From contig NZ_CP036280.1 in the NCBI RefSeq assembly GCF_007748075.1, forward strand, positions 2,940,001 through 2,972,000: a DNA stretch of 32,000 bases, written 5' to 3'. The notes under the pieces were generated by a model. It saw nothing but the letters and a program-made list of their open reading frames with translations, did no database searches and was not told where the DNA came from. The position numbers and the translations under genes are program-made. Of the stretch, positions 7,527 through 32,000 are shown piece by piece. Numbering within the stretch: position 1 is the stretch's first letter; each line of letters opens with the position of its first letter. This stretch comes from Mucisphaera calidilacus. Lineage in GTDB: Bacteria > Planctomycetota > Phycisphaerae > Phycisphaerales > Phycisphaeraceae.

Positions 7527-8666
7527 TCAGGTGGGTTTGACGATGGATTCCATGATCTCGGTGGGGTCGATGCCGGCGTCGAGCGCGGCGGCCTCGGCGC
7601 GTTTCCTGATCTCGCTGACGACGTCGCGGTGTTCTGCTGCGTCGAGGCAGGCGAGGTCGGGCTTGTCGACGGGTCCGACGACGAATCGTTGGCAGAGGGT
7701 GTCGAGTCGGCGGTTGGCCTGTTCGAGTCGTTCGCGTGGGATGCGTCCGTCCTCGACGGCTTGTGCGATGGCGTCGATGGATTCGTTGGCGAGTTCGTTG
7801 GTGTGGCAGCAGAGCAGGAGGTCGACGCCGGCGGCGATGGCGTGGACGGCGGCCTCGGGGACGGCGTAGTTGTTGGCGATGGCCTTCATCTCGAGGTCGT
7901 CGGAGACGACGACGCCGTCGTATCCCATGGACTGCCGGAGCAGTCCGTGGATGACGGGCTGGCTCATGGTGGCGGGGTGTTGGGTGTCGATGGCCTCGAA
8001 GATGATGTGTGCGGTCATGATGGAGGCGATGTCGGCGTCGGCGGCGGCGCGGAAGGGTGGCAGCTCGACGGCTTCGAGGCGTTGCATGTCGTGTTTGAGT
8101 GTGGGGAGGGTGAGGTGGGAGTCCTGGTTGGTGTCGCCATGTCCGGGGAAGTGTTTCCCGCAGGCGGCGACGCCGGCGTCCTGGATGCCTTTGATGAGTT
8201 CGAGTCCGAGTCGTGTGACGACCTCGGCGTCGCGTGCGATGGAACGCGTGGCGATGATGGGGTTGTCGGGGTTGGAGTCGACGTCGAGGACGGGCGCGAA
8301 GTCGAGGTCGAATCCGACGGCGCGGCACTCGCTGCCGAGGACCTCGCCGGCCTTGCGTGCGAGGACGGGGTCGTTGACGGAGCCGAGGGCGCGCATGGGT
8401 GGCAGTTCGCTGAAGCCCTGTCGCAGTCGCTGGACGCGTCCGCCTTCCTGGTCGACGCCGAGGATGAGGGGTCGGTCGCCGGCGCGTTGCTTGAGAAGGG
8501 TGGTGAGGGCGGCGACGTCGTTGGGCTGGGTGTCGACGTTGCGGGCGAAGAAGACGACGCCTCCGACGCCTCGGTCGATGAGTTCGAGGACGCCGGTGCT
8601 GGGTTCGGTTCCGGGGAAGCCGACGCAGAGGGTGCGTGCGGCGAGTCGCTGGAGGTCGGACGCCAT
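7527..8666 (-). CDS. nagZ: Beta-N-acetylhexosaminidase NagZ (GH3)
   Basis: ATG at 8666. GH3/NagZ blocks present: LILGVDQEGGRVQRL, FAPVLDV, GKHFPGHGDTNQDSHLTLP and VVVSDDLEM. Confidence 0.9.
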   Translation of the reverse strand: MASDLQRLAARTLCVGFPGTEPSTGVLELIDRGVGGVVFFARNVDTQPNDVAALTTLLKQRAGDRPLILGVDQEGGRVQRLRQGFSELPPMRALGSVNDPVLARKAGEVLGSECRAVGFDLDFAPVLDVDSNPDNPIIATRSIARDAEVVTRLGLELIKGIQDAGVAACGKHFPGHGDTNQDSHLTLPTLKHDMQRLEAVELPPFRAAADADIASIMTAHIIFEAIDTQHPATMSQPVIHGLLRQSMGYDGVVVSDDLEMKAIANNYAVPEAAVHAIAAGVDLLLCCHTNELANESIDAIAQAVEDGRIPRERLEQANRRLDTLCQRFVVGPVDKPDLACLDAAEHRDVVSEIRKRAEAAALDAGIDPTEIMESIVKPT

Positions 8667-8699
8667 GGTTTTCCTCTCGGTACTGCTGATTCCTGCCGT

Positions 8700-10454
8700 C
8701 TACTCGGTCGCGATCTCGATGTTGTTTCGCAGGAGGAGGGTTCCGGTGGACTCGAAGAGTTGCGTGATGGCAACGGCGTAGTCGGCCCTTGCCTGGATTT
8801 CCTGGATCTCGGTGTTGGCGAGTCGTTCCTGCGTGGTGAGTTTCTGGTCGAGGAGGAATTCGGGCGTGAGCGCGACGCCTGCCTCTTCCTGTTCTTCGAT
8901 CGCGCGGAGGTTGTCGGCGGTGGCGCGTCGTGCGGCGCGTGTGGAGCCGATGAGTTCGTAGGCGTTGATGACGTTGCGCATGGCGTTCTTGACGTCGATG
9001 ATGACGTCCTGAGCCTGTCGTTCGTAGGCGATGGCGGCGACGCGTCGTTCGAGTCGTCGCTGTTCCATGAGCGATTCGGCGGATCGGTTGCCGATGGGTT
9101 GTTCGAAGGTGGCGCCGACGTTCCAGTCGATGAAGAAGTCGCTGGAGAAGGTGTCGCCGATGGCGGAGCCGAGGTCGTCGTTGTCGACGCCGTTGAGCGA
9201 AGCGCCGGCGGTGAGGTCGAGGAGCGGGAGTCGGAGGTTGTCGGCGAGCCGCTGTCGGAGCGAGGCGTCCTTGATGTCGTAGAGGGCGATGACGAGTTCG
9301 GGTCGGTTGCGCATGGCCACGGCGACGGCGTCGAGGAGGCTGTAGCGGATGGGGTCCTCGGGGGGTATTTCGGTGGAGAGGACGAGTGCTTCGCCTGCGA
9401 GTGGCAGTTCGGGGTCGTTGATGAGTCGCTTGAGTGCGTCGGAGGTCTGTCGGACGATCTGGCGTGCGCGGATGAGGTCGGCGCGTCGGAGTTCGACGAA
9501 GCTGTTGGCCTGTGTGATGCGAACGGGGCTGACGTCGAACTGCTGTCGTTTGAGGAGGCGGTCGCGTTCGGCGACGGTGCGGTTGAGGAGTCGCGTCTGG
9601 ATGAGGAGCTGGTTCTCGGCGACGTAGACGTTCCAGTAGGCCTGTTCGACGGAGGAGGCGAGGGCGATGAGGTTCTGCTTGAGGGTTTCGCTGGCGACGC
9701 TTTCTGCGTTGCGTGCGAGTTCGATCTGGGTGGTGCTGATGTCGCGTCCGAAGCCGCGGAGCAGGGGTTGCGTGACGGCGAGGGAGATGTCGTGGTCGAA
9801 GAAGGACTGGACGCCTGAGAAGCTGTCTTCGGTGTAGCTGGCGGAGGTGGCGACCTGGATGGTTCCGCCGGAGAGCATGGGCTTGCGGATGCCGACCTGT
9901 CCGTTGGTGACGTCGCCGAAGACGTCTCGTCCGACGCCGTTGCCCGGTCCGAGGGGTCCGGGTGTGGCGGTGCGTGTGTAGTTGAGGTCGGCGAAGAGGA
10001 CGGCGTCGAAGACGGCCTCGGCCTGGACGCGTTGGGTTCGTGAGATGCCCGGACCGAGTTTGGCGACGCGGAGGTCGATGTTGTTTCGGACGGCGGATTC
10101 GACGGCCTGCTGGAGGGTCATGCGGACGCGAGGCCCGTTGAGTTCTCCGGTGAGGTCGGGTCCGACTTCGAGGGGGTCGTTGGCGTAGGCGTCGATGCCG
10201 CTGGTGTCGTCGAGTTCTTCGAGTCGTTCCTCGGTCATCTGTGCAGTGACGTCGGATTCTTCGCGGTCGACCTGCACGACGGGCGCGGTGATGACGGATT
10301 CCATGCGTGCCCGGTGGGCATTGAGGATGGTTTCGCGCAGGGCGATTTCGTCGTCCTGATCGAGTGGGCTGGTGCATCCGCTGAGGATGACGGCGGCAGA
10401 GAGCGCCGAGGCCAGCAGGTGCCGAAGGGTAAAGACGCCGGGCTTGATGGTCAT
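8700..10454 (-). CDS. TolC-family outer-membrane efflux protein (lipoprotein-type signal)
   Basis: ATG at 10454. Signal with lipobox AVILSGCTS. Two OEP-type repeats with typical LTLQQAVESAVRNNIDLRVAKL and LSLLDAVAVAMRNRPEL starts. Size is right for the family. Confidence 0.8.
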   Translation of the reverse strand: MTIKPGVFTLRHLLASALSAAVILSGCTSPLDQDDEIALRETILNAHRARMESVITAPVVQVDREESDVTAQMTEERLEELDDTSGIDAYANDPLEVGPDLTGELNGPRVRMTLQQAVESAVRNNIDLRVAKLGPGISRTQRVQAEAVFDAVLFADLNYTRTATPGPLGPGNGVGRDVFGDVTNGQVGIRKPMLSGGTIQVATSASYTEDSFSGVQSFFDHDISLAVTQPLLRGFGRDISTTQIELARNAESVASETLKQNLIALASSVEQAYWNVYVAENQLLIQTRLLNRTVAERDRLLKRQQFDVSPVRITQANSFVELRRADLIRARQIVRQTSDALKRLINDPELPLAGEALVLSTEIPPEDPIRYSLLDAVAVAMRNRPELVIALYDIKDASLRQRLADNLRLPLLDLTAGASLNGVDNDDLGSAIGDTFSSDFFIDWNVGATFEQPIGNRSAESLMEQRRLERRVAAIAYERQAQDVIIDVKNAMRNVINAYELIGSTRAARRATADNLRAIEEQEEAGVALTPEFLLDQKLTTQERLANTEIQEIQARADYAVAITQLFESTGTLLLRNNIEIATE

Positions 10455-10589: not shown

Positions 10590-12005
10590 ATGCCGCGTCC
10601 GATGACGATCACCGAGAAGATTCTGGCTGCTCATGCGGGCCGCGACGAGGTTCGTCCGGGCGAGAACGTGTGGGTGGATGTTGACGTTCTGATGACGCAC
10701 GACGTGTGCGGGCCGGGGACGATCGGCATTTTCAAGGAGGAGTTCGGTGCGGACGCACGGGTGTGGGACCCGACGCGGATCCCGATCATCCCGGACCACT
10801 ACATCTTCACGGCGGACGAGAAGTCGCACCGGAACATCCAGATCCTGCGTGATTTCGTGAGGGAACAGGGGATCAAGTATTACTACGACCCCGACTTCCT
10901 GGACACGGCGGAGGGTTCGGGCATGCCGAATCCGTACCGCGACCCGACCAAGACGAACTATAAAGGCGTGTGTCACAAGGCGTTGCCGGAGGAGGGCCAC
11001 TGCCGGCCGGGCGAGATCCTGCTGGGGACGGATTCGCACACGTGCACGGCGGGGGCGTTTGGTCAGTTCGCGACGGGCGTGGGGAACACGGATGCGGCGT
11101 TCGTGATGGGGACGGGGCGGACGTGGCTGAAGGTCCCGCCGACGATGAAGTTCGTTTTTCACGGCGAGATCCCGCCCTACCTGACGGCGAAGGACCTGAT
11201 CCTGGCGGTGATCGGTCAGATCTCGGTTTCGGGTGCGACGTACAAGTCGATGTACTTCACGGGCGACGGGATCCGTTCGCTGACGCTCGAGGACCGGATG
11301 ACGCTGACGAACATGGCGATTGAGGCGGGCGGCAAGAACGGCGTCTGCGACGTGGACGAGAAGACGCTGGCGTATGTTCGTGCCCGGTCGAATCGTCCGG
11401 AATGGACGGTGTACGAGGAGGACGAGGGTGCGGAGTACGACTACGTCCACGAGTGGGACCTGGGGACGCTGGAGCCGCTGGTGGCCAAGCCGCACTCGCC
11501 TGACAACAGGGACACGGCGCGAAACTGCAGGGACGTTCCGCTGGAGCGTGCCTACATTGGTTCGTGCACGGGCGGGAAGATCACGGACATGATCATGGCG
11601 GCGAACCTGCTCAAGGGTCATCAGGTGAAGATCCCGACGTTTGTGGTCCCGGGTTCGACCGAGGTGCATCAGGACATGAAGAGCCGCGGTCTGGATGGCG
11701 AGCTGCGGAAGCTCGGCGAGCCGACGATCGAGGAGGTTCTGCTGGACGCGGGCTGCACGATGGGTCCGGCGTCGTGTGCGGCGTGCCTGGGCGGTCCGGT
11801 GGACACGTTCGGGCGGTTGAACGAGCCGATGGCGTGCATCAGCACGACGAACCGCAACTTCCCGGGCCGGATGGGTCACAAGGAGGCGGGCGTCTATCTC
11901 GCGAGCCCGCTGACGGTGGCCGCTTCGGCGTTGACGGGCAAGGTGACGGACCCGCGTGAGTACGTGGACGCGCCGATCCTGACGGGCTCGGCGGGGGTGC
12001 GTTGA
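10590..12005 (+). CDS. leuC: 3-isopropylmalate/homoaconitate dehydratase large subunit (aconitase family, type 2 LeuC/HacA)
   Basis: ATG at 10590 with AGGAG at 10577-10581. MTITEKILAAHAG...DVLMTHDVCGP, GTDSHTCTAGAFG and Fe-S ligand blocks IGSCTGG and CAACLGG. No small-subunit gene follows. Confidence 0.85.
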   Translation: MPRPMTITEKILAAHAGRDEVRPGENVWVDVDVLMTHDVCGPGTIGIFKEEFGADARVWDPTRIPIIPDHYIFTADEKSHRNIQILRDFVREQGIKYYYDPDFLDTAEGSGMPNPYRDPTKTNYKGVCHKALPEEGHCRPGEILLGTDSHTCTAGAFGQFATGVGNTDAAFVMGTGRTWLKVPPTMKFVFHGEIPPYLTAKDLILAVIGQISVSGATYKSMYFTGDGIRSLTLEDRMTLTNMAIEAGGKNGVCDVDEKTLAYVRARSNRPEWTVYEEDEGAEYDYVHEWDLGTLEPLVAKPHSPDNRDTARNCRDVPLERAYIGSCTGGKITDMIMAANLLKGHQVKIPTFVVPGSTEVHQDMKSRGLDGELRKLGEPTIEEVLLDAGCTMGPASCAACLGGPVDTFGRLNEPMACISTTNRNFPGRMGHKEAGVYLASPLTVAASALTGKVTDPREYVDAPILTGSAGVR

Positions 12006-12051
12006 GCGAGCCATCGCAATAATCAAAAATTTATGATATCATCATGCTTAC

Positions 12052-12768
12052 ATGGTGATCGTGGATATCACGAGTTGGGATGAGCTGCAGCGGCGGCTGT
12101 GCGCTTTTGATCGGCTGGCTACTCATGAGCGGGGGGCGTGGCTGTTTCGTGGCCATGCTTCGGAATGGTGGTCGCTTTCGTCGACGCTTGACCGTATGCA
12201 GACGTTCACGAGTTCGGGTTCGCGCAGGCAGGCTGCCCGGGATCTTCTGGAGCGGTTTACGCAGCAGGCTGCCTTGGCGCGAGGGCGGCGTTTCGTTGGT
12301 TTGATGGACCATCAGGTCAGGCAGGTCCAGATGATCGCGCGGCATCATGGTCTGCCGTGCACGGTGCTGGATCTCTCAAGGAATCAGAGGATTGCCCTGT
12401 TTTTCGCGCTCGCTCGCCCCGAACGGGCCGAGGATTTCGGCCACGCCTGCCTGATTGCGATCAATCGGGTTTATGCGTCGCGTCACGATGGGTTGCGTTT
12501 TTTTCCGGACAGGGCGCAGCCCAGCAGCGAGCACTTTCTGAGAGTTCAGCGGCAGGAGGCAACTCTGGTCGAGATCGGCGGTTACGGTCAATCTCTCGAA
12601 ACCATGGTTCCTGAGGCTCTGGTGAAATACCGTCTCTCGCCTATGATTCTGGATGAGGCCATCACGGTTCTGCGTGACTCGTATGACCTGAGCCTCAGTT
12701 ACCTGATGGGTGACCTTGCCACGGCCGCGGCAGAGGCAGAGAGGCACTACAAGGAGCAGATGCCATGA
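12052..12768 (+). CDS. FRG-domain protein (function unknown)
   Basis: ATG at 12052 in an AT-rich leader. The WLFRGH motif, plus ARHHGLPCTVLDLSRNQRIALFFAL (family pattern QHyGlPTrLLDwT.sp.vAlyFA) and RVQRQEATLVEI (Ri.aQ.G.F). GC is lower than in the flanking genes. Confidence 0.8.
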   Translation: MVIVDITSWDELQRRLCAFDRLATHERGAWLFRGHASEWWSLSSTLDRMQTFTSSGSRRQAARDLLERFTQQAALARGRRFVGLMDHQVRQVQMIARHHGLPCTVLDLSRNQRIALFFALARPERAEDFGHACLIAINRVYASRHDGLRFFPDRAQPSSEHFLRVQRQEATLVEIGGYGQSLETMVPEALVKYRLSPMILDEAITVLRDSYDLSLSYLMGDLATAAAEAERHYKEQMP

Positions 12769-13004
12769 CCGCAGTGATCTTTGATTCTGAGTGGCCGCTC
12801 CGGGCTGACGAAGAGCGGCTCATTTCGCTCTTTGTTCAGACGGGCAAGGCTCTGGAAGAGCTGCCATACTCGGACGACCTCGACGCATTGATCCGGCGGT
12901 ACGACGCGAGCGATCGTCACGAGCAGAACGGTCGGGTCACGGATCTCCGGAGACGAGAGATGCTCAACCGGCTGTGGAACTACCGGCTGCGCGGCATGAT
13001 TTAG
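12765..13004 (+). CDS. 79-aa hypothetical protein translationally coupled to the FRG gene
   Basis: ATG at 12765 overlaps the FRG stop (ATGA). aaggag at 12751-12756 lies 8 nt upstream. Charged helical-looking sequence. I recognise no family. Confidence 0.55.
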   Translation: MTAVIFDSEWPLRADEERLISLFVQTGKALEELPYSDDLDALIRRYDASDRHEQNGRVTDLRRREMLNRLWNYRLRGMI

Positions 13005-13063
13005 AGGGTGTTGTGCACCCGCCTCGGGAGCATTCTGCGAGAACCGCCCGAGAGGTAGAGGCT

Positions 13064-13816
13064 TTAGAGGCTCTGGAGGATGTTGAACGCGATCAGTTTG
13101 GCGCAGGCGCGGCCGCGGTGGGAGATGGCGTTTTTCTCGTCGGGGGTGAGCTGGGCGGTGGTGAGGCCGGGGTAGGGTGCGTCCTCATCGAGGAGGAAGA
13201 GCGGGTCGTAGCCGAAGCCGTTGGTGCCCTTGCCGAGGTGGGGTTGTTCGGGGTTGTCGGCTTCCTCGGGGAGGAGGATGCGGCCCTCGACCCGGCCGAC
13301 GACGGTGGCGAGGCAGTGGGGGCGGAGGTCGTCGGGGATGTCGGCGAGGTCGGTGAGGGGTTTGGCGGCGGGTGTGGGTGCGGCGATGACCATGTGGCAG
13401 ACGAAGCGTGCGTGGCGGTCGCGTTTGTGGACGCCGTCGAGGGCGTGGAGGAGCTTGCGGTTGTTGGCGGGGTCGCGTTGGGCTCGGTTGAGTTGGTCCC
13501 AGGGCGCGGGGAGGTCGGGCTGGTCGTCGGCGTAGTGGGCGGAGTCGACGCCCGGGTGGCCGTCGAGGGCGTCGACGACGAGTCCTGAGTCGTCGGCAAG
13601 GCAGGTCATGCCGGTGGCGCGGGCGTACTCAACGGCCTTGACGGCGGCGTTGCCGGTAAAGCTGTTGCGGTCTTCGACGGGTTCGGGGATGTCGCGGTCG
13701 AGGTCGCGGAGGGAGTGGAGGGTGATGCCCTCGAGGTAGCCTGCGAGGGCGGCGGCGATCTCGTCGACCTTGTGGGGGTTGCCGGTGGCGATGAGGATCG
13801 GGTGGGGATCGTTCAT
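13064..13816 (-). CDS. rdgB: RdgB/HAM1-family non-canonical purine NTP pyrophosphatase
   Basis: Track ORF 13064..13975 trimmed to ATG 13816 (cat at 13814-13816), 11 nt after the upstream gene's stop. ILIATGNPHKVDEI, LADDSGLVVDALDGHPGV, GFGYDP and ISHRGRA are the family blocks. Confidence 0.85.
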   Translation of the reverse strand: MNDPHPILIATGNPHKVDEIAAALAGYLEGITLHSLRDLDRDIPEPVEDRNSFTGNAAVKAVEYARATGMTCLADDSGLVVDALDGHPGVDSAHYADDQPDLPAPWDQLNRAQRDPANNRKLLHALDGVHKRDRHARFVCHMVIAAPTPAAKPLTDLADIPDDLRPHCLATVVGRVEGRILLPEEADNPEQPHLGKGTNGFGYDPLFLLDEDAPYPGLTTAQLTPDEKNAISHRGRACAKLIAFNILQSL

Positions 13817-17054: not shown

Positions 17055-17999
17055 TCAGCGGACGCCGTCGTTGGCTTTGCCGTCGATGGTCCATCGGTTC
17101 TGGTCGTGAAAACGTGCGTCGGTGAGGTAGCCGTCGTATTCGCCGGGCTCGAGGCCTGACCCGCCGTTGCGGCCTGAGGAGGTTCCGCCGCCGCCGTAGA
17201 TGTCGGTCTGGTTGCTGCTGTCGGGGTTGGCGAGTTGGAAGCTGGCTGCGTGTCCGTCGGCGTAGACGATGGGCATCGCCCCCCTGTTGCGAGCGTCGGG
17301 TCGGCCATGGATGGCGCCGGCGGCGTAGTCCCAGACGAAGAGGCAGCCACGAACATAGGTGGAGACGTTGTTGCTGCCGCCTGGGCGACCGGAGCTGTTG
17401 GAGCCGACGGTGTCGGTTTCAATGGCTGTGGTGAAGTAGATCATCTCGGAGGGCCGTGCGACCTGTGAAGCCTTGGGCGTGGGCGGGTCGCCGTCTGCGG
17501 GGTCGTAGACGGCGCGGTTGAAGCCGGAGCTTCTCTGGATGGTGCCGATGTTGGAGGTGTTCATGGAGAAGTGCGGGTAGACCCAGTTGAGTGCCTGCTC
17601 CTTCTCGAGTGTGCCGTACTCGGCTTCGATGATGGGGTAGTCCTGATCGATTTCTTCGAAGAGGGGGTCGGTGAAGACTTCGGGTGTGGGGGCGTAGCCT
17701 TGGCGTGCGAGGTTGGCGGTCCACCAGACGCTTTCGGGGTCGAAAGCATTGACGATTCGCCAGCCGCCGAAGTTTTTCGACTGATAGGGGACGTAGTAGT
17801 CGTCGTTGTCGACACAGTAGGACCAGACTGCCTGACCGGACGATCGAGCGTTGACCATAGAAGCCAGAGCGCGAGCGGTGTTGCGTGCGGCTCCGAGTGC
17901 GGGCAGGAGGATGCCGATGAGCAGCGCGATGATGGAGATGACGACAAGGAGTTCGATGAGGGTGAACCCTCGTGTGTGTCGTTTGGTGGCGGAATTCAT
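17055..17999 (-). CDS. Prepilin-type N-terminal cleavage/methylation domain protein (pseudopilin-like, DUF1559/H-X9-DG-type)
   Basis: Trimmed to ATG 17999 (cat at 17997-17999). MNSATKRHTRGFTLIELLVVISIIALLIGILLPAL is the class signature. The C-terminal IVYADGHAASF resembles the DGH block of this PVC-expanded family. Confidence 0.85.
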   Translation of the reverse strand: MNSATKRHTRGFTLIELLVVISIIALLIGILLPALGAARNTARALASMVNARSSGQAVWSYCVDNDDYYVPYQSKNFGGWRIVNAFDPESVWWTANLARQGYAPTPEVFTDPLFEEIDQDYPIIEAEYGTLEKEQALNWVYPHFSMNTSNIGTIQRSSGFNRAVYDPADGDPPTPKASQVARPSEMIYFTTAIETDTVGSNSSGRPGGSNNVSTYVRGCLFVWDYAAGAIHGRPDARNRGAMPIVYADGHAASFQLANPDSSNQTDIYGGGGTSSGRNGGSGLEPGEYDGYLTDARFHDQNRWTIDGKANDGVR

Positions 18000-18373: not shown

Positions 18374-19156
18374 TCAGGGTCGTGGGTGGAAGGAGGAAAT
18401 GACGTCTTTGAGTCGGGAGCGGTCGACGTGGGTATAGACCTGGGTGGTGTTGATGTTGGCGTGGCCGAGGAGTTCCTGAACGACGCGGAGGTCGGCACCG
18501 CCTGCGAGGAGGTGTGTGGCGAAGGCGTGCCTGAGGACGTGGGGGTGGATCTTGCGGATGCCGGCGCGGGCGGCGTGGCGTTTGACGATCTGCCAGACGA
18601 CGATGCGGGTGATCGGCTGGCCGGTTCGGGATAAGAAGAGTCTCTGGCTGGGTTTATCGTGTCGGGCGAGTTCGGGTCGGTCGTGTTCGATGTAGGCCTC
18701 GACGTGGTCGAGCGCCGTGCGTGCGATGGGGACGATGCGTTCCTTGGAGCCTTTGCCGAGGACGCGGACGACGCCGAGGTCGCGTTGGAGGTCGTTGAGG
18801 TTGATGTTGGCGAGTTCGGAGGCTCGGAGACCGCAGGCGTAGAGCAGTTCGAGCAGGGCGCGGTCGCGTCGGCCGAGGGGCTCGTCGGGGTGGGGGGTGC
18901 TCAGGAGCTGGTTGACGACCTCGTAGGAGGGTGCGTGGGGCAGTTTCCGGCCGATTTTGGGCTGGATGAGCATCTCGGCGGGGTCGGCCTCGAAGAGCCC
19001 GGTGGAGAGCAGGTAGCGGGCGAAGACGCGGATGGTGGCGAGGTGGCGTGCGACGCTGACGGCGGCGAGTTCCTGCTTGGTGGATAAGTCCTGCAGGTGA
19101 GCACGGATACGGGCGTCGGAGAGTTCGGCCCAGGACCTGGCCTCGTCTTTGACCAT
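18374..19156 (-). CDS. XerC/XerD-family tyrosine recombinase; coordinates are the ATG-bounded ORF, and the true N-terminus lies further upstream (at least to 19264; see findings)
   Basis: Catalytic blocks GLRASELANINLNDL, HPHVLRHAFATHLLAGGADLRVVQELLGHANINTTQVYTHV. The same frame upstream of 19156 reads FDAPVRGFLAYCKVECGFAHATIAAYAADLRDLWVW, a typical Xer N-terminal SAM-like domain. Confidence 0.85.
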   Translation of the reverse strand: MVKDEARSWAELSDARIRAHLQDLSTKQELAAVSVARHLATIRVFARYLLSTGLFEADPAEMLIQPKIGRKLPHAPSYEVVNQLLSTPHPDEPLGRRDRALLELLYACGLRASELANINLNDLQRDLGVVRVLGKGSKERIVPIARTALDHVEAYIEHDRPELARHDKPSQRLFLSRTGQPITRIVVWQIVKRHAARAGIRKIHPHVLRHAFATHLLAGGADLRVVQELLGHANINTTQVYTHVDRSRLKDVISSFHPRP

Positions 19157-19446
19157 CCAGACCCAGAGGTCGCGGAGGTCGGCGGCGTAGGCGGCGATGG
19201 TGGCGTGTGCGAAGCCGCACTCGACCTTGCAGTAGGCGAGGAAGCCGCGGACGGGCGCGTCGAAGGCGGAGGTCGACTTGGCGGGGGTAGCCTGGTTGGT
19301 TGCGGGCGTAACGATGGCGGGTTGCTCCAGACGTTCAACCGGTGGTTTGGGGGCCGGTGCGGGGTTCCTCCGTGTGAATATCGGGTGATTGCCCCATGGG
19401 GCATCGGATTTCGGGCCGTGGCGTCGGGGGTGAGGCCGGGGTGGGG

Positions 19447-19474
19447 TTGATGGATGATGATGTCGATCTACAAT
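19447..19474 (+). promoter_or_regulatory. Sigma-70-like promoter for the CAT-anticodon tRNA
   Basis: TTGATG (19447-19452), 16-nt spacer, TACAAT (19469-19474). It sits 30 nt before the mature tRNA 5' end. The leader contains a perfect 7-bp hairpin, ctcgccc/gggcgag, at 19481-19500. Confidence 0.5.
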
Positions 19475-19504
19475 GCGGAGCTCGCCCGTGGATGGGCGAG
19501 GATT

Positions 19505-19578
19505 GCCGGCATAGCTCAGCTGGTTAGAGCGAGGGATTCATAAGCCCTAGGTCGCTGGTTCGAATCCAGCTGCCGGCA
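19505..19578 (+). tRNA. tRNA with CAT anticodon (elongator Met or lysidine-type Ile2; not an initiator)
   Basis: The 74-nt cloverleaf was folded by hand: acceptor GCCGGCA/TGCCGGC (1-72 is a G-C pair), D stem GCTC/GAGC, anticodon loop TTCATAA, T arm GCTGG-TTCGAAT-CCAGC, discriminator A, no encoded CCA. There is one A.G mismatch at the loop-proximal anticodon-stem pair. Confidence 0.85.
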
Positions 19579-19611
19579 TTTGGCGGGGTGGGAGGGGTTC
19601 GGGCGGGCGGC

Positions 19612-29245: not shown

Positions 29246-29318
29246 GCGGGTGTAGCTCAATTGGTAGAGCGTCAGCCTTCCAAGCTGAATGTTGTGAGTT
29301 CGAGTCTCATCACCCGCT
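29246..29318 (+). tRNA. tRNA-Gly (anticodon TCC)
   Basis: The 73-nt cloverleaf was folded by hand: acceptor GCGGGTG/CACCCGC, D stem GCTC/GAGC, anticodon arm TCAGC-CTTCCAA-GCTGA, T arm GTGAG-TTCGAGT-CTCAT, discriminator T. The anticodon arm equals that of E. coli tRNA-Gly(UCC) as I recall it. Confidence 0.9.
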
Positions 29319-29352
29319 TTCCCCCGCCCCCGGAAAGAAGCTCGTCAGTATC

Positions 29353-29395
29353 CGCCTTCGCGTGACATCGGTCGCCCGAAGGCGTCTTTGTTTCG
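29353..29395 (+). terminator. Hairpin plus T-rich tract after tRNA-Gly
   Basis: cgccttcg (29353-29360) pairs with cgaaggcg (29377-29384) across a 16-nt loop, followed by tctttgtttcg. The large loop makes this weak. Confidence 0.3.
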
Positions 29396-29499
29396 CCCAC
29401 GTCGCGAGTTACGCACCAGCCGTACCGCTTGGGCCAACGCCCGCCTCTCGCCCACACACGCCAACGTGTGCCAGCAGTTTCCGGGGGTGGCCTGCCGTC

Positions 29500-29563
29500 C
29501 GTGCAAGGATTCGTACAAGCGCTCGGCTGCTTCCGGGGGCGACGTGCAAGGTTTCGTGCAAGG
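29500..29563 (+). repeat. Three perfect and one degenerate copy of the 9-mer CGTGCAAGG, arranged as two 12-bp-phased pairs
   Basis: Perfect copies at 29500-29508, 29543-29551 and 29555-29563. Degenerate cgtacaagc at 29512-29520. Confidence 0.8.
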
Positions 29564-29599
29564 ACTGGGCGGTCAGATGAACTGGGCCGACCACGTGAG

Positions 29600-29629
29600 A
29601 TCGTAAAACGGTCATGACCATTTTACGAT
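29600..29629. repeat. 30-bp near-perfect palindrome just downstream of the integrase stop
   Basis: atcgtaaaacggtcatgaccattttacgat: 14 of 15 positions are self-complementary, with a perfectly palindromic core ggtcatgacc. Confidence 0.85.
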
Positions 29630-29661
29630 GGACACGATAATGGTAAGGCCAAGATGGAGCC

Positions 29662-31137
29662 TCAGCCCGCCACGGACAGGGGCTGATCGGTGACTTCGCC
29701 CACTGACGAGCCGAAGGCAGGCAACGCCTCGACGGCACCGGCCACATCAAGCAGGGCCGGGTCGGTGTAGACGTTCATCGTGAGTTCGAGGCTGCTGTGC
29801 CGCATCGCGGCCATGGCGACGCGCGGGGCGACGCCCGCCCGGGCGAGGTGGGTGCCGAACGTGTGGCGAAGGGCGTGCAGATCGACCACCCGATCCCGCT
29901 CGTCACGCTTCGGGATACTGGCGGCGGCAAGGTCACGGTCGAACACGCGGATCATGTCCTTGGGTATGGGGAACAGGTGCGTGTCCTGTCGGAGTGCGGT
30001 TACACAGGCGCGTGCCTGCAGGTCGTCGATGTATGCGTGCAGCGCATCAACCAGGTCCGCCCGCAGTGGGATCATCGCGCCGCGACCCGCCTTCTCATCC
30101 TTGGCCAGCAGTTCGAGACTCGGGTACTGGCCCTCAAGGTGAGCCTGGCCGACAGTGATGCTGGCCAGTTCGCTCTTACGCAGGCCGCTGCAGATCATGA
30201 TGCGGTACATCAGCGCCCGCTGACGACCGACGAACATCAACGCGTCGACTCGGTCTGGCTGGTCAGCGAGCAGCTTCAATCCACACTGGTAGGCAGCGTC
30301 AAGCGTGTCGAACGTCAGCTTCGCCTTGGTCCAGGTGCTATGACCTGACTTTTCATCATCCAGCTTGGCCACGCTCTCGCGCCCCAGTTCAGCAATCGGT
30401 CGCAGTTCCGCCGACCGCAGCAGGCGTGTGATCTCATCTTCGGTCAGAGCCCTGCGGTTCCGCCGACGGTCACCGAGTTCATCGGCTTTGTACAGCTTGG
30501 CCAGCGGGTTGAAGCTCAGCCGCCCCGAATCAACACACCAGTTACAGAAGGCGACGATCGCCGCACGGTGGGTGTTGCGGGTCCGACCTGCCATGCCGTC
30601 TGCCTCACGCTGGTTCATCCACGTCTCCATCGTCTCGCGCGAGATGTCCGTCACGCGCTTGAACCCGCACTCGGCCACAACGCGTTCGAGTTGATGCTTC
30701 ACGTTCCGCCGATGGTGGGTCGACACACGCTTGCCGCGTACCGTCTTGGCCTTGAGGTGTTCGAGGTAGGCGGCGATGTGCCGGGCAATGGGCTGGTCGG
30801 CGAAGCCGGCCTGCCGATCTTGTTCAGCAGTGAGGATGCCCGACTTCACGTGCTCGACCCGCCGCAGCAGGTCAGCGAGTACCTGTCGGGCGGCCTGTTC
30901 ATCCCGGCAGCCTGTTGATTCGATCCGCTCGATGCCCTGGGCGTCCCGATAGCGTGCGAACCACGTCGGGCTGACGCGGATGATCTTGGTCTGCCCCTGC
31001 TTGCCGGTAGTGATCTGGTCGTAGTGCTTGCGGCCACGCCGGTCACTCCACATCGCCACGCGTTGGCCTCGCCGCTCGACGATCTCGCACTGCCTGGGCA
31101 GGTGCTGGGTGTAGGTCTTCCTGAAGATATTCGCCAT
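29662..31137 (-). CDS. Tyrosine-type site-specific integrase
   Basis: Track ORF trimmed to ATG 31137 (cat at 31135-31137). Catalytic blocks CSGLRKSELASITVG, LHALRHTFGTHLARAGV and AMRHSSLELTMNVYTD. The long N-terminal arm-binding-type region is typical of island integrases. Confidence 0.9.
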   Translation of the reverse strand: MANIFRKTYTQHLPRQCEIVERRGQRVAMWSDRRGRKHYDQITTGKQGQTKIIRVSPTWFARYRDAQGIERIESTGCRDEQAARQVLADLLRRVEHVKSGILTAEQDRQAGFADQPIARHIAAYLEHLKAKTVRGKRVSTHHRRNVKHQLERVVAECGFKRVTDISRETMETWMNQREADGMAGRTRNTHRAAIVAFCNWCVDSGRLSFNPLAKLYKADELGDRRRNRRALTEDEITRLLRSAELRPIAELGRESVAKLDDEKSGHSTWTKAKLTFDTLDAAYQCGLKLLADQPDRVDALMFVGRQRALMYRIMICSGLRKSELASITVGQAHLEGQYPSLELLAKDEKAGRGAMIPLRADLVDALHAYIDDLQARACVTALRQDTHLFPIPKDMIRVFDRDLAAASIPKRDERDRVVDLHALRHTFGTHLARAGVAPRVAMAAMRHSSLELTMNVYTDPALLDVAGAVEALPAFGSSVGEVTDQPLSVAG

Positions 31138-31278
31138 TTTCGAATCCCTTGCCCCCGGAAGTCTCCCACAGCAACGTGCCGGGGCGATCAACCTCCGGGG
31201 GTGACACACTCAGCGGTCAGTCGCCCCTGAAAGCAAGGGCGATCCGGCCCCCTCGCGAAAGGGGGCCACAGGTCCGCA

Positions 31279-31338
31279 GGTTCAAAAGGTTCAGAAGGTC
31301 AAACGCCTGGGCCTTTGGACCTTTTGAACCCCTGAACC
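31279..31338. promoter_or_regulatory. About 60-bp imperfect dyad built from 3+3 nine-bp GGTTCA-type units, between the DUF3987-like gene and the integrase
   Basis: GGTTCAAAA GGTTCAGAA GGTCAAA cgcctgggcc TTTGGACC TTTTGAACC CCTGAACC. The 12-bp arms ggttcaaaaggt (31279-31290) and accttttgaacc (31319-31330) are perfectly complementary. Confidence 0.6.
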
Positions 31339-31349
31339 GTGGCGGTCGA

Positions 31350-32000
31350 TCACGGCGTCGGGGCTGCCACCTTGGCGTTGATGTGGTGGACCACCTTGGC
31401 GCGGCCCGGCGTGTTGAGCGTCTCGGTTCGTAGCCAGCCCAGTTCGATCAGTTCATCCACGGCAAGCTGAACCTGCTCGGCATCCGCCAGCAGCGACCAG
31501 TGATGACCGTGGTACACATCGCGAACGGTGAACCCGGTGGCAACATCGCCTTGTTCAATGCGCTGGGCTAGTGCCCGGGCATGAGCCGTGGCTGGATGGA
31601 TGCCGCGCGAGTAGATGCGCCGAGCATGAGATTCGAGGTAGTCGGCCCAACCGACCGCCCGCGTCACGGCATCCAGTGTGACCGGCCCACCGTCGGACTC
31701 CGCAAGGTGGATGCTCAGCGCCAGCGCCGGCAGCAGCTTGCGGTACTTGGTCAGGTGGCTCTCTACGGCGGGGTGTTCCGCGCCGCTTCGGAGATGATTT
31801 TCCCGATCGACCATCCAGACGTAGAACCGATCCTGCGCCGCGGCATCGAACCGAAGGAACGGTGTCGTATTGCTGTCGAACGCGCCGGGCAGTTCGCCGA
31901 TGGATGAGGCAGGCAGTTCATCGAATCGCTGGTACACGGCATAGGCGGCATTCTTCGCATCGGAGTCGGGCCAGCGATCAACAACCTGCCATGCACCCGG
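31350..32000 (-). CDS. DUF3987-like (YfjI-type, primase/helicase-associated) mobile-element protein, C-terminal part; 5' end lies outside the window
   Basis: The frame stays open upstream of the listed GTG at 31937 to the window edge (PGAWQVVDRWPDSDAKNAAYAVYQRF...). HLTKYRKLLPALALSIHLAE resembles the conserved (A)HLAKYRSLMPSLAL block of DUF3987 proteins, from memory. Confidence 0.6.
   Translation of the reverse strand, partial: PGAWQVVDRWPDSDAKNAAYAVYQRFDELPASSIGELPGAFDSNTTPFLRFDAAAQDRFYVWMVDRENHLRSGAEHPAVESHLTKYRKLLPALALSIHLAESDGGPVTLDAVTRAVGWADYLESHARRIYSRGIHPATAHARALAQRIEQGDVATGFTVRDVYHGHHWSLLADAEQVQLAVDELIELGWLRTETLNTPGRAKVVHHINAKVAAPTP

What the first reader, a model, noticed from the sequence alone, without database searches (positions are those of the whole stretch)
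12006..13063. Lower-GC two-gene islet: FRG-domain protein plus a translationally coupled 79-aa ORF, a candidate uncharacterised conflict/toxin-type module
Between leuC and rdgB, where 60-nt lines count about 68-70% GC, lies a ~1 kb patch whose lines count about 53-65%. It is entered through an AT-rich leader (caataatcaaaaatttatgatatcatcatgcttac) containing the perfect 10-bp palindrome ATGATATCAT (12033-12042) only 10 nt before the ATG. Gene 1 carries clear FRG-domain motifs (WLFRGH, HHGLPCTVLDLSRNQRIALFFAL, RVQRQEATL). As far as I know, that domain has no assigned function. Gene 2 (79 aa) overlaps it by ATGA and has its own aaggag. This tight pairing is typical of toxin/immunity or effector/regulator pairs. 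The composition and the position between unrelated housekeeping genes suggest horizontal acquisition. No integrase or flanking direct repeat is visible, apart from a trivial 8-mer tttagagg at 13000 and 13063.
Basis: partly seen in the sequence, partly recalled or inferred. Interest (0 to 1): 0.75.

Follow-up and report, generated by a model that had tools for sequence, protein, structure and literature searches.

The report
FRG enzyme with obligate small partner
The two small genes after leuC are a real, strictly conserved pair: an uncharacterised FRG-domain protein with an ADP-ribosyltransferase-like fold and a previously undescribed 75-residue partner, found in Planctomycetota always just behind a housekeeping gene, and most likely a toxin/antidote-type module, though no function has been tested.

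Summary
In Mucisphaera calidilacus, 12052-12768 encodes a 238-aa Pfam FRG protein. It overlaps by ATGA with a 79-aa ORF (12765-13004), in a lower-GC patch between leuC and rdgB.

The pairing is real and subfamily-specific:
- ORF2 belongs to an undescribed ~75-aa domain family with no Pfam, NCBIfam, PADLOC or PDB match.
- All 5 distinct ORF2 homologues lie directly behind an FRG gene.
- All 13 independently found FRG genes of this ~230-aa subfamily carry the partner.
- None of 106 other FRG loci, 28 of them viral, carries it.
- Both genes are under purifying selection.

A confident AF2 model (pLDDT 92) resembles only ADP-ribosyltransferase-fold proteins in the PDB, and only weakly.

"Recent horizontal islet in a defence island" is not supported as stated. 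The pair sits behind leuC in two other genomes as well, and behind ispG, an ArgD-like aminotransferase or hisS elsewhere. It never lies near integrases or defence genes. Even so, its GC3 is far below that of its neighbours in six of seven long loci.

Best reading (about 0.4): an ART-fold toxin or effector with a co-translated protein antidote. The Mucisphaera copy is a very divergent member. Verdict: a new variant of a known kind, of moderate interest.

The parts
10590..12005 (+). leuC (3-isopropylmalate dehydratase large subunit). It is the co-directional housekeeping 'anchor' gene directly upstream of the pair.
   Evidence: Pfam Aconitase, E 4e-89. It is 82% identical to the LeuC that precedes the FRG pair in Planctomycetales bacterium ZRK34. 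Its C-terminus is 76% identical to the LeuC fragment that precedes the pair in L014.
12006..12051 (+). AT-rich 46-nt spacer or leader between the leuC stop and the FRG start.
   Evidence: GC is 0.35 against 0.64 for the window. The scan found no sigma-70 site with a -35 element and Rfam found nothing. Spacers in homologous loci are also short: 15-61 nt in 12 of 13.
12033..12042 (.). Perfect 10-bp palindrome ATGATATCAT. It also reads as an extended -10 (TGnTATCAT) ending 9 nt before the start codon.
   Evidence: It is unique in the window even with one mismatch allowed (0.13 expected). GATATC occurs only twice in 32 kb, at 12035 and 12064. GATATC is also present in the corresponding spacer of L008 and L095. 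The promoter or operator role is inference.
12052..12768 (+). FRG-domain protein of 238 aa, a divergent member of a ~230-aa partnered FRG subfamily with a predicted ART-like alpha/beta fold.
   Evidence: Pfam PF08867, 51 bits. Full-length match to PADLOC PDC-S15 model PDLC04937, E 5e-21. End-to-end match of 113 bits to a subfamily HMM built without it. AF2 model with pLDDT 91.9 and pTM 0.88. The top Foldseek PDB hits are ART-fold proteins.
12064..12069 (.). Second GATATC, within GTGGATATCAC, 12 nt inside the FRG coding sequence.
   Evidence: It may be a coincidence of the codons for V-D-I-T. Its function is unknown.
12751..12756 (+). AAGGAG Shine-Dalgarno-like motif, 8 nt upstream of the ORF2 start and inside the FRG 3' end.
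   Evidence: Read directly from the sequence.
12765..13004 (+). Partner protein of 79 aa. It is one copy of an undescribed ~75-aa domain with an acidic N-terminal half (W-P-L-x-x-D/E-E..L..F/Y...G+.L-E/D-x-L-P-Y-S/T..L/F-D..L) and a basic C-terminal helix region.
   Evidence: Exhaustive HMMER found 5 genuine homologues, all downstream of FRG genes. It scores 40 bits (E 1e-14) against a family HMM built without it. It has no Pfam, NCBIfam, PADLOC, PHROG or PDB match. Family members show dN/dS of 0.20-0.24. The charge dipole is conserved.
13005..13063 (.). Spacer between the convergent ORF2 and rdgB. It contains two hairpins and is a possible bidirectional terminator without a T-run.
   Evidence: The RNA fold is -29.9 kcal/mol, z = -2.1. 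The terminator scan did not call it.

Best explanation
The locus is a two-gene, co-translated module. Gene 1 encodes an FRG-domain enzyme of the ADP-ribosyltransferase (ART) fold. Gene 2 encodes its dedicated small protein partner.

Proposed mechanism:
- The FRG protein is a growth-arresting effector that uses NAD+, either cleaving it or transferring ADP-ribose to a cellular or viral target.
- The partner is made in fixed proportion through the overlapping stop/start. It binds the enzyme and keeps it inactive, as a type II antitoxin or immunity-like antidote.
- Loss or titration of the partner, through stress, proteolysis or phage infection, would release the activity.
- The module is transcribed by read-through from the housekeeping gene upstream (leuC here), possibly supplemented by a minimal extended -10 promoter (TGATATCAT) in the AT-rich spacer.

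Shown:
- Both ORFs are real genes.
- The co-occurrence is strict and subfamily-specific.
- The tight coupling is conserved.
- Both genes are under purifying selection.
- The fold model is confident, and its only PDB resemblance is to ARTs.
- The pair is compositionally atypical and is anchored behind housekeeping genes.

Inferred:
- NAD+ use, toxicity, inhibition by the partner, the trigger, and the promoter.
For: Pairing:
- An exhaustive search with ORF2 gave 5 true homologues (E 1e-8 to 9e-4), each with two tandem units. All lie 0-16 nt behind, or overlap, a ~230-aa FRG gene.
- FRG-seeded searches agree. All 8 metagenome loci whose FRG ORF scores at least 188 bits against the subfamily HMM have the partner, and so do 5 of 5 long contigs. 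None of the 106 loci with other FRG types (at most 158 bits) has it, and they show no other recurrent neighbour.

Coupling: ATGA, TAATG or GTGA overlaps, or gaps of at most 27 nt, occur in all loci.

Selection: dN/dS is 0.08-0.10 for FRG and 0.20-0.24 for the partner in the closest pairs.

Fold:
- The AF2 model has pLDDT 91.9.
- By my count, 26 of the top 41 Foldseek PDB hits are ARTs: KptA/Tpt1, cholera toxin and LT A chains, Plt/typhoid toxins, Rhs TreTu/TreX, DarT, cholix and CARDS.
- This agrees with the published computational assignment of Frg to the ART superfamily as a predicted NADase effector (PMC9503650).

Conserved residues: the polar residues R33, R48, R58, R97-H98-H99, D107, [S/T]109, R164 and Q168 are retained in the window protein.

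Defence candidacy: PADLOC PDC-S15 models match, the best over the full length.

Precedent (established knowledge): ART-fold toxins with dedicated protein antidotes include DarT-DarG, ParT-ParS, RES-Xre/MbcT-MbcA and Tre1-Tri1.

Accessory-type signals:
- GC3 of the pair is far below that of its neighbours in 6 of 7 long loci, for example 0.40/0.48 against 0.84 in ZRK34.
- In L014 a DUF433/DUF5615 toxin-antitoxin pair follows directly.
Against: - There is no functional data for any FRG protein.
- The family has Gln (Q168), not the catalytic Glu of classical R-S-E ARTs.
- The partner has no recognisable DNA-binding or antitoxin domain, and its structure could not be predicted here.
- Genomic behaviour is unlike typical toxin-antitoxin or defence genes. 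The position is conserved behind leuC, ispG or the aminotransferase within FRG clades. No integrase or defence genes lie nearby. The pair is absent from the viral contigs scanned, and the window FRG protein found only two distant FRG matches on plasmids.
- The Mucisphaera copy is on a very long branch. It is 23-28% identical to all relatives, while LeuC is 82% identical to that of ZRK34.
- The Mucisphaera copy lacks the near-invariant W108, S111, P112, N162 and F172, and its partner lacks GRLPR. It may therefore be altered or inactive.
Confidence: 0.4

Rival explanations
1. The pair is a housekeeping or regulatory two-subunit enzyme, not a conflict system. The FRG protein would carry out a constitutive NAD+- or phosphate-dependent modification or repair reaction, for example a Tpt1/KptA-like action on RNA 2'-phosphates or a regulatory ADP-ribosylation. 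The small partner would be its substrate adaptor or activating subunit. The pair would be inherited vertically in Planctomycetota and co-transcribed with biosynthetic genes.
For: - The position is conserved directly behind co-directional housekeeping genes with operon-like spacing of 15-61 nt: leuC x3, ispG x3, ArgD-like x3 and hisS.
- FRG clades follow the anchor gene.
- The aminotransferase-linked loci also share the downstream gene.
- No mobile or defence genes lie nearby, and the pair is not found in viral contigs.
- Purifying selection is strong.
- The best single Foldseek hit is KptA/Tpt1.
- The conserved Arg/His cluster recalls the Arg-His-Arg-Arg tetrad of Tpt1 (from memory, not tested).
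Against: - GC3 is 0.1-0.44 below that of neighbours in 6 of 7 genomes, with sharp boundaries at the anchor gene's stop. This is hard to reconcile with long residence as a core gene.
- Divergence is extreme relative to the anchor gene (27% against 82%).
- The anchor gene varies between clades.
- The partner's copy number varies (1 or 2 units, plus an extra coiled-coil tail in L010).
- FRG relatives are embedded in defence systems (the basis of PDC-S15; bioRxiv 10.1101/2024.01.29.577857).
Confidence: 0.25
2. The pair is an anti-phage abortive-infection system in which the partner is a sensor or trigger module rather than an antidote. The partner would recognise a phage component through its repeatable ~75-aa unit and switch on the FRG NADase/ART.
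For: - PADLOC PDC-S15 models match.
- Frg is a predicted immunity effector (PMC9503650).
- The partner unit is modular and is duplicated in several clades, with a degenerate second copy that could diversify specificity.
- The partner evolves faster than the enzyme (dN/dS 0.2 against 0.09).
- The composition is atypical.
Against: - None of 6 long contigs or the window shows defence-island context.
- PDC-S15 is untested and is defined as a single gene.
- Nothing links the partner to phage proteins. The window ORF2 has no PHROG hit, and no partner ORF occurs in the 28 viral FRG loci.
Confidence: 0.2
3. The Mucisphaera copy is a decaying or neofunctionalised remnant of the module. The ORFs are intact but constraint is relaxed, so whatever the family does, this copy may no longer do it.
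For: - It lies on the longest branch of the family.
- Leave-one-out scores are 113 bits for FRG and 40 bits for the partner, against 188-370 and 77-114 bits for other members (some of which were in the models that scored them).
- It has lost W108, S111, P112, N162 and F172, residues conserved in at least 90% of 122 relatives.
- The partner's GRLPR motif has become REMLNR.
Against: - Both reading frames are intact, and the overlap and Shine-Dalgarno motif are preserved.
- The invariant R97, H98, D107 and F118, together with R33, G34, R164 and Q168, are retained.
- Enzyme and partner have diverged together, as expected for co-evolution.
- The AF2 model is confident across the whole chain.
Confidence: 0.15
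4. ORF2 is a chance open frame and gene 1 is a solitary FRG gene.
For: A word-indexed search of 5.8 billion proteins found only the ORF itself. It has no family match.
Against: - Exhaustive HMMER and profile searches show a conserved family of at least 19 loci, always in the same position.
- The window ORF2 matches the family HMM at E 1e-14.
- The family is under purifying selection.
Confidence: 0.02

Closest known systems
PADLOC PDC-S15 (FRG-domain single-gene 'phage defence candidate')
   Same: Gene 1 matches 12 PDC-S15 HMMs. The best, PDLC04937, matches over the full length at E 5e-21. It has the same Pfam FRG domain.
   Different: - PDC-S15 is defined as a single gene. It was found by being embedded in BREX, DISARM or type I RM loci and is untested (bioRxiv 10.1101/2024.01.29.577857).
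- Here the FRG gene has an obligate second gene that is not in PADLOC.
- It lies among housekeeping genes rather than in defence loci.
ART-fold toxin-antitoxin and effector-immunity pairs (DarT-DarG, ParT-ParS, RES-Xre/MbcT-MbcA, Tre1-Tri1, Rhs TreTu-TriTu)
   Same: - It is a two-gene module with a ~230-aa ART-like enzyme and a dedicated co-expressed small protein.
- As in darTG, the enzyme gene comes first and the two genes overlap.
- DarT and TreTu are among the top structural matches.
   Different: - There is no sequence similarity to any of these enzymes.
- The partner is not a macrodomain, an Xre/DUF2384 protein or any known immunity fold.
- The family lacks the catalytic Glu (it has Q168).
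- Toxicity and neutralisation are untested.
- The genomic position is unusually stable.
Tpt1/KptA RNA 2'-phosphotransferase (ART superfamily)
   Same: It is the best single Foldseek hit (9ldi, E 0.35; also 6e3a and 8tg3). Like it, this family relies on conserved Arg/His residues rather than a catalytic Glu (comparison from established knowledge of Tpt1, not tested here).
   Different: - TM-scores are only 0.2-0.3 over 88-165 columns.
- There is no sequence similarity.
- Tpt1 works alone and has no obligate partner gene.
Frg clade of the ART superfamily as described computationally by Burroughs, Aravind and colleagues
   Same: It is the same Pfam domain. The published prediction of an NAD+-utilising effector in conflict systems (PMC9503650) fits the fold result here.
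   Different: The primary paper (J Bacteriol 2020, 202:e00365-20) is not held in the library. I therefore could not check whether this partnered Planctomycetota subfamily or its partner was noted there. Nothing in the searchable literature mentions it.

Membership tests
Pfam FRG domain (PF08867) | Score above the curated gathering threshold | tested here: met
   51.1 bits against a cut-off of 25, residues 29-126.
Pfam FRG domain (PF08867) | Conserved (F/Y)RG motif plus the ARHHG..P..LD[WF][ST]xS..A.FFA core | tested here: met
   F32-R33-G34, A96-R97-H98-H99-G100, P102, D107, S109 and A115..F118-A119 are present. W108, S111 and P112 are replaced by L, N and Q.
Partnered ~230-aa FRG subfamily (defined here) | Full-length match, including the C-terminal helical region, to a subfamily HMM built without the query | tested here: met
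   112.6 bits, HMM positions 1-228 of 228. The score is lower than for other members (188-370 bits).
Partnered ~230-aa FRG subfamily (defined here) | A gene with the ~75-aa partner unit immediately downstream on the same strand | tested here: met
   ORF2 overlaps by ATGA and matches the unit HMM built without it at E 1e-14. The same holds in 13 of 13 FRG-seeded loci and all 5 partner-seeded proteins (6 loci).
PADLOC PDC-S15 | HMM match to a PDC-S15 model | tested here: met
   Twelve models match, best E 5.1e-21.
PADLOC PDC-S15 | Single-gene system embedded in or near known defence systems | tested here: not met
   The gene has an obligate partner. No defence genes were found in the window or in six long homologous loci.
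PADLOC PDC-S15 | Demonstrated anti-phage activity | not testable with these tools
   PDC systems are explicitly untested candidates (bioRxiv 10.1101/2024.01.29.577857).
ADP-ribosyltransferase (ART) superfamily | Split beta-sheet ART fold | tested here: inconclusive
ADP-ribosyltransferase (ART) superfamily | Catalytic motif triad (R/H on beta 1; S-x-S or Y on beta 2; [QE]xE or E on beta 5) | tested here: inconclusive
   R33 lies on strand 30-35. S109-x-N111 (family [ST]-x-S) follows strand 105-109. Q168, not Glu, lies just before strand 170-175, and the window alone has E169. The mapping was made by eye, not by superposition.
ADP-ribosyltransferase (ART) superfamily | NAD+ binding or turnover | not testable with these tools
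   A biochemical assay is needed.
Type II toxin-antitoxin system | Two small adjacent co-directional genes, coupled or overlapping, that strictly co-occur | tested here: met
Type II toxin-antitoxin system | Antitoxin with a DNA-binding domain, autoregulating through an operator | tested here: inconclusive
   The partner has no HTH, RHH or AbrB match, only single weak Myb, RHH and HNH_repeat hits at E > 0.01. Palindromes at the window's start codon are shared by only 2 of 12 other spacers.
Type II toxin-antitoxin system | Toxin arrests growth and the antitoxin neutralises it by binding | not testable with these tools
   This needs expression tests.
Type II toxin-antitoxin system | Patchy, mobile distribution | tested here: inconclusive
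   For: GC3 is far below that of neighbours, and several different anchor genes are used. Against: anchors are conserved within clades, and the pair is not in the viral contigs scanned. The window FRG protein found only two distant FRG matches on plasmids. Presence or absence among close relatives could not be tested.

The most novel reading that the evidence does not exclude
The pair is a selfish, recombinase-less two-gene cassette: an ART-fold toxin plus a new type of protein antidote. It lodges specifically at the 3' end of essential housekeeping genes (leuC, ispG, argD-like, hisS) in Planctomycetota, living off their transcription. It is repeatedly replaced by horizontal exchange at the same anchor. 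That would explain the combination of clade-specific conserved position, sharp compositional boundaries (GC3 0.40 against 0.84 in ZRK34) and extreme divergence. If so, it would be a new mode of persistence and targeting for toxin-antidote elements, and would give the first function for the FRG domain.
Probability: 0.15. Interest if true: 0.75.

Novelty: new variant of a known kind. Interest (0 to 1): 0.5.

Why it matters
The FRG domain (PF08867) is widespread in bacteria, phages and plasmids and is listed as a defence candidate, yet no member has been tested. This subfamily gives it a handle. It has an obligate, co-translated small partner from a protein family absent from Pfam, NCBIfam, PADLOC and the PDB. 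That makes a direct toxin-plus-antidote (or enzyme-plus-adaptor) experiment possible.

The pair also poses a small evolutionary puzzle. It sits at a fixed position behind essential genes, yet its composition is foreign-looking in nearly every host. If the ART/NADase prediction is right, this would add a new partner type to the NAD+-centred conflict systems, in a phylum (Planctomycetota) where such systems are almost unstudied.

Tried and rejected
- AF2 on the single FRG sequence gave a useless all-helix model (pLDDT 47). It was replaced by the run with a 122-sequence alignment.
- Sequence searches of the PDB with the FRG protein, two FRG profiles and two partner profiles found nothing significant.
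- My only genome-contig scan used a poor 3-sequence alignment and returned just 3 distant FRG loci. I therefore could not survey the leuC-rdgB interval in related genomes or establish presence and absence across Phycisphaerae.
- A word-indexed search with ORF2 found only the ORF itself. The exhaustive search was needed. One of its hits, P0009, is a spurious Ig-repeat protein.
- Viral contigs and plasmids hold only other, unpartnered FRG types.
- Rfam found no RNA family in 11800-13300. The sigma-70 scan found no promoter with a -35 element.
- The four 'terminators' called inside the FRG coding sequence were disregarded because they lie inside the gene.
- No conserved att-like motif or flanking repeat was seen in the up- or downstream spacers of 13 loci. 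The TTTAGAGG 8-mer is trivial.
- The opposite-strand ORFs 12031-12348 and 12376-12747 were set aside, because the conserved protein families and the Pfam FRG match lie on the + strand.
- The primary Frg paper (J Bacteriol 2020) is not held.
- Cluster look-up gave no organism names.
Full report
**1. What is in the sequence**

The window comes from Mucisphaera calidilacus (Phycisphaerae, Planctomycetota). Both proteins have exact matches in that genome.

- leuC (10590-12005, +; Aconitase family) ends at 12005. rdgB (13064-~13702, -; Ham1 family) converges from the right.
- Between them lie a 46-nt spacer of 35% GC, a 238-aa ORF (12052-12768) and a 79-aa ORF (12765-13004).
- The 79-aa ORF's ATG overlaps the first gene's TGA. 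It is preceded by AAGGAG at 12751-12756.
- The palindrome ATGATATCAT is at 12033-12042 and is unique in the window.
- The interval 12006-13063 is 58.8% GC, against 64.0 ± 2.6% for 1-kb windows and 68-71% in the immediate flanks.
- The deficit lies in third codon positions: GC3 is 0.68 and 0.75, against 0.82-0.89 in four neighbouring genes.
- Two other stretches of the window are equally low, so the dip is real but not unique.

**2. Gene 1**

- It passes the Pfam FRG threshold (51 bits against 25).
- It matches twelve PADLOC PDC-S15 models, one of them over the full length (E 5e-21).
- It has no NCBIfam model, only a weak PHROG match of unknown function, and no PDB relative by sequence.
- On function, the literature holds only computational statements. 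The Aravind group places Frg in the ADP-ribosyltransferase (ART) superfamily and predicts a NADase or effector role in prokaryotic immunity (PMC9503650).
- PADLOC's PDC systems are untested candidates, found because they are embedded in BREX, DISARM or type I RM loci (bioRxiv 10.1101/2024.01.29.577857).

**3. Gene 2 is real and defines a new family**

- A word-indexed search found only the ORF itself.
- An exhaustive HMMER scan of 1.84 billion representatives found five genuine relatives (E 1e-8 to 9e-4) and one spurious Ig-repeat protein.
- Each true relative holds two tandem copies of a ~75-aa unit. Its consensus is W..PPLS.ED.RLV.AY...GRPLD.LPYT..F..L, then a linker of about 12 residues, then H..F.RLL.LRK.GRLPR.
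- The window ORF2 is one such unit and matches a family HMM built without it at E 1e-14.
- The family has no match in Pfam, NCBIfam or PADLOC for any of 22 units, and no PDB match. The window ORF2 has no PHROG hit.
- The unit has a conserved charge dipole. The first 45 residues carry -3 to -8 and the rest +2 to +7.
- In the closest pairs the partner has dN/dS of 0.20-0.24 and the FRG gene 0.08-0.10. Both are therefore coding and constrained.

**4. The pairing is strict and subfamily-specific**

- All five partner homologues lie directly behind an FRG gene of 232-243 aa, overlapping it or separated by at most 16 nt.
- In the reverse direction, a profile of these FRG proteins retrieved at least 775 FRG proteins. 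The 120 best listed are nearly all 211-246 aa long (range 201-288). The same profile retrieved 80 metagenome loci.
- Scoring all ORFs locally gave a bimodal result. Every locus whose FRG ORF scores at least 188 bits (8 of 8) has a partner ORF immediately downstream. None of the 72 loci scoring at most 158 bits does.
- Five more subfamily members on long contigs all have the partner.
- The 28 FRG loci from viral contigs belong to other subfamilies and lack the partner.
- The 106 non-subfamily loci show no other recurrent downstream gene.
- So FRG proteins are generally solitary, but this ~230-aa subfamily is an obligate two-gene module.
- Partners come as one unit (75-89 aa, as here), two units (148-171 aa), or two units plus a coiled-coil tail (274 aa).

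**5. Structure**

- With a 122-sequence alignment, AF2 gives a confident alpha/beta model (pLDDT 91.9, pTM 0.88).
- Foldseek against the PDB finds nothing at E ≤ 1e-3. By my count, however, 26 of the top 41 hits are ART-fold proteins: KptA/Tpt1, cholera toxin and LT A chains, Plt/typhoid toxins, the Rhs toxins TreTu and TreX, DarT, cholix and CARDS. TM-scores are 0.2-0.47.
- The residues conserved in at least 90% of 122 relatives cluster on elements that by eye correspond to the ART motifs. R33 lies on the first core strand. R97-H98-H99, D107 and [S/T]109-x-S111 lie around the second. R164 and Q168 lie just before a later strand.
- The family has Gln where classical ARTs have the catalytic Glu.

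**6. Genomic behaviour**

- The pair is never in a defence island or mobile element. No integrase, transposase or defence gene lies within 6-8 kb in six long loci. None flanks it in the window, where the nearest integrase-family gene is 5.3 kb away.
- Instead the pair is always tucked behind a co-directional housekeeping gene, at 15-61 nt in 12 of 13 loci. The anchor genes seen are:
  - leuC, here, in Planctomycetales bacterium ZRK34 and in soil contig L014;
  - ispG, in L008/L009, L015 and L097;
  - an ArgD-like aminotransferase, in L007, L012 and L094;
  - hisS, in L095;
  - what look like the C-terminus of a class II ribonucleotide reductase (L013) and of a methylmalonyl-CoA mutase (L024). 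These two were recognised by eye and not tested.
- In a rough NJ tree the FRG clades follow the anchor gene. The aminotransferase-linked loci also share the downstream gene. That pattern looks vertical.
- The composition says otherwise. GC3 of the pair is far below that of its neighbours in six of seven long loci:

| Locus | FRG / partner GC3 | Neighbours GC3 |
|---|---|---|
| ZRK34 (L093) | 0.40 / 0.48 | 0.84 |
| L097 | 0.56 / 0.55 | 0.82 |
| L095 | 0.53 / 0.45 | 0.74 |
| L094 | 0.73 / 0.74 | 0.90 |

- In ZRK34 the GC drop begins exactly at the leuC stop.
- The 'lower-GC islet' seen here is therefore a family-wide trait, not evidence of a recent event in Mucisphaera.
- In L014 a DUF433/DUF5615 toxin-antitoxin pair follows the module directly.
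- I cannot reconcile the stable position with the foreign composition. Repeated replacement at a fixed anchor, or selection for AT-rich codons, are the options.

**7. The Mucisphaera copy is an outlier**

- LeuC is 82% identical to that of ZRK34. The FRG proteins are 27% identical, and the partners are not alignable pairwise. The two other leuC-linked FRG proteins are 43% identical to each other.
- The window protein keeps the invariant residues but lacks W108, S111, P112, N162 and F172. Its partner has REMLNR in place of GRLPR.
- It may be co-evolving fast, or it may be functionally altered.

**8. Regulatory signals**

- GATATC occurs only twice in the 32-kb window, at 12035 and 12064, on either side of the start codon.
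- It also occurs in the equivalent spacer of L008 and L095. That is 3 of 13 spacers totalling 659 nt, where about 0.16 occurrences are expected for a random hexamer (my arithmetic).
- TGATATCAT reads as an extended -10 element ending 9 nt before the ATG, which would give a leaderless or near-leaderless mRNA. This is inference only.
- The short spacers suggest read-through from the anchor gene.
- The 59-nt spacer before rdgB folds into two hairpins (z = -2.1).

**9. Mechanism and verdict**

- The best-supported reading (about 0.4) is an ART-fold, NAD+-using effector kept in check by a co-translated protein antidote. It would work like DarT-DarG, RES-Xre or Tre1-Tri1, but with an unrelated enzyme clade and a new partner.
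- The rivals are a housekeeping two-subunit enzyme (0.25; favoured by the stable housekeeping context and the Tpt1-like top hit), an abortive-infection system in which the partner is the sensor (0.2), and functional decay of this particular copy (0.15; compatible with any of the others).
- It qualifies as a member of Pfam FRG and matches the PDC-S15 HMMs. It fails the PDC-S15 definition as a single, defence-embedded gene.
- Membership of the ART superfamily and of type II toxin-antitoxin systems is unproven.
- Novelty: a new variant of a known kind. The new elements are an obligate partner family that appears undescribed and an unusual anchoring pattern.
- Interest is moderate (0.5). It gives an experimentally tractable entry to the untested FRG domain, but nothing here overturns expectations.

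Noticed in passing
window 29246-31937: tRNA-Gly (29246-29318, +) is followed by a 515-aa Phage_integrase-family gene (29662-31209, -) and a DUF3987 gene (31350-31937, -). This is probably the edge of an element integrated at the tRNA.
   Followed up: no
window 18374-19579: A 260-aa Phage_integrase-family gene (18374-19156, -; E 1e-47) lies beside tRNA-Met (19504-19579, +). It may be a Xer-type recombinase or an integrase remnant. It is 5.3 kb from the FRG pair and not obviously linked to it.
   Followed up: no
window ~600-2000 and ~17200-17750: Two other stretches are as GC-poor as the FRG islet (0.57-0.59 per kb). They lie inside a 904-aa pentapeptide-repeat gene and an N_methyl (pseudopilin-like) gene.
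   Followed up: partly
window 12035 and 12064; L008 2027-2041; L095 5956-6000: GATATC occurs only twice in the 32-kb window, both within 30 nt of the FRG start codon. It recurs in the anchor-FRG spacer of two other loci; L008 even shares GATATCATCATG. It may be a cis element or an extended -10, or it may be chance.
   Followed up: partly
L014 1203-1835: A DUF433 (E 1e-23) plus DUF5615/PIN-like (E 2e-15) toxin-antitoxin pair sits immediately downstream of the leuC-FRG-partner block in this soil metagenome contig.
   Followed up: yes
L097 5759-6000: This is the only locus with a long (242-nt) spacer between the anchor gene (ispG) and FRG. The spacer holds a 67-aa ORF with no Pfam match.
   Followed up: partly
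L093 (Planctomycetales bacterium ZRK34, CP050848.1) 8000-9400: A sharp low-GC islet (0.40-0.58 against 0.62-0.72) starts exactly at the leuC stop. It covers FRG, the partner and a further 62-aa ORF without a Pfam match. It is a stronger version of the window's dip.
   Followed up: partly
L007 1673-3079, L012 1756-2973, L094 9010-10401: The three aminotransferase-linked FRG pairs share a conserved downstream gene of about 465 aa with no Pfam match (N-terminal motif FDWQRWPETEAF). Both flanks are therefore syntenic in that clade.
   Followed up: partly
window 10590-13004; L093 6577-9151: leuC is not followed by leuD in either genome: the FRG pair occupies the position where leuD usually sits in bacteria (that expectation is from general knowledge). 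I did not look for leuD elsewhere.
   Followed up: no
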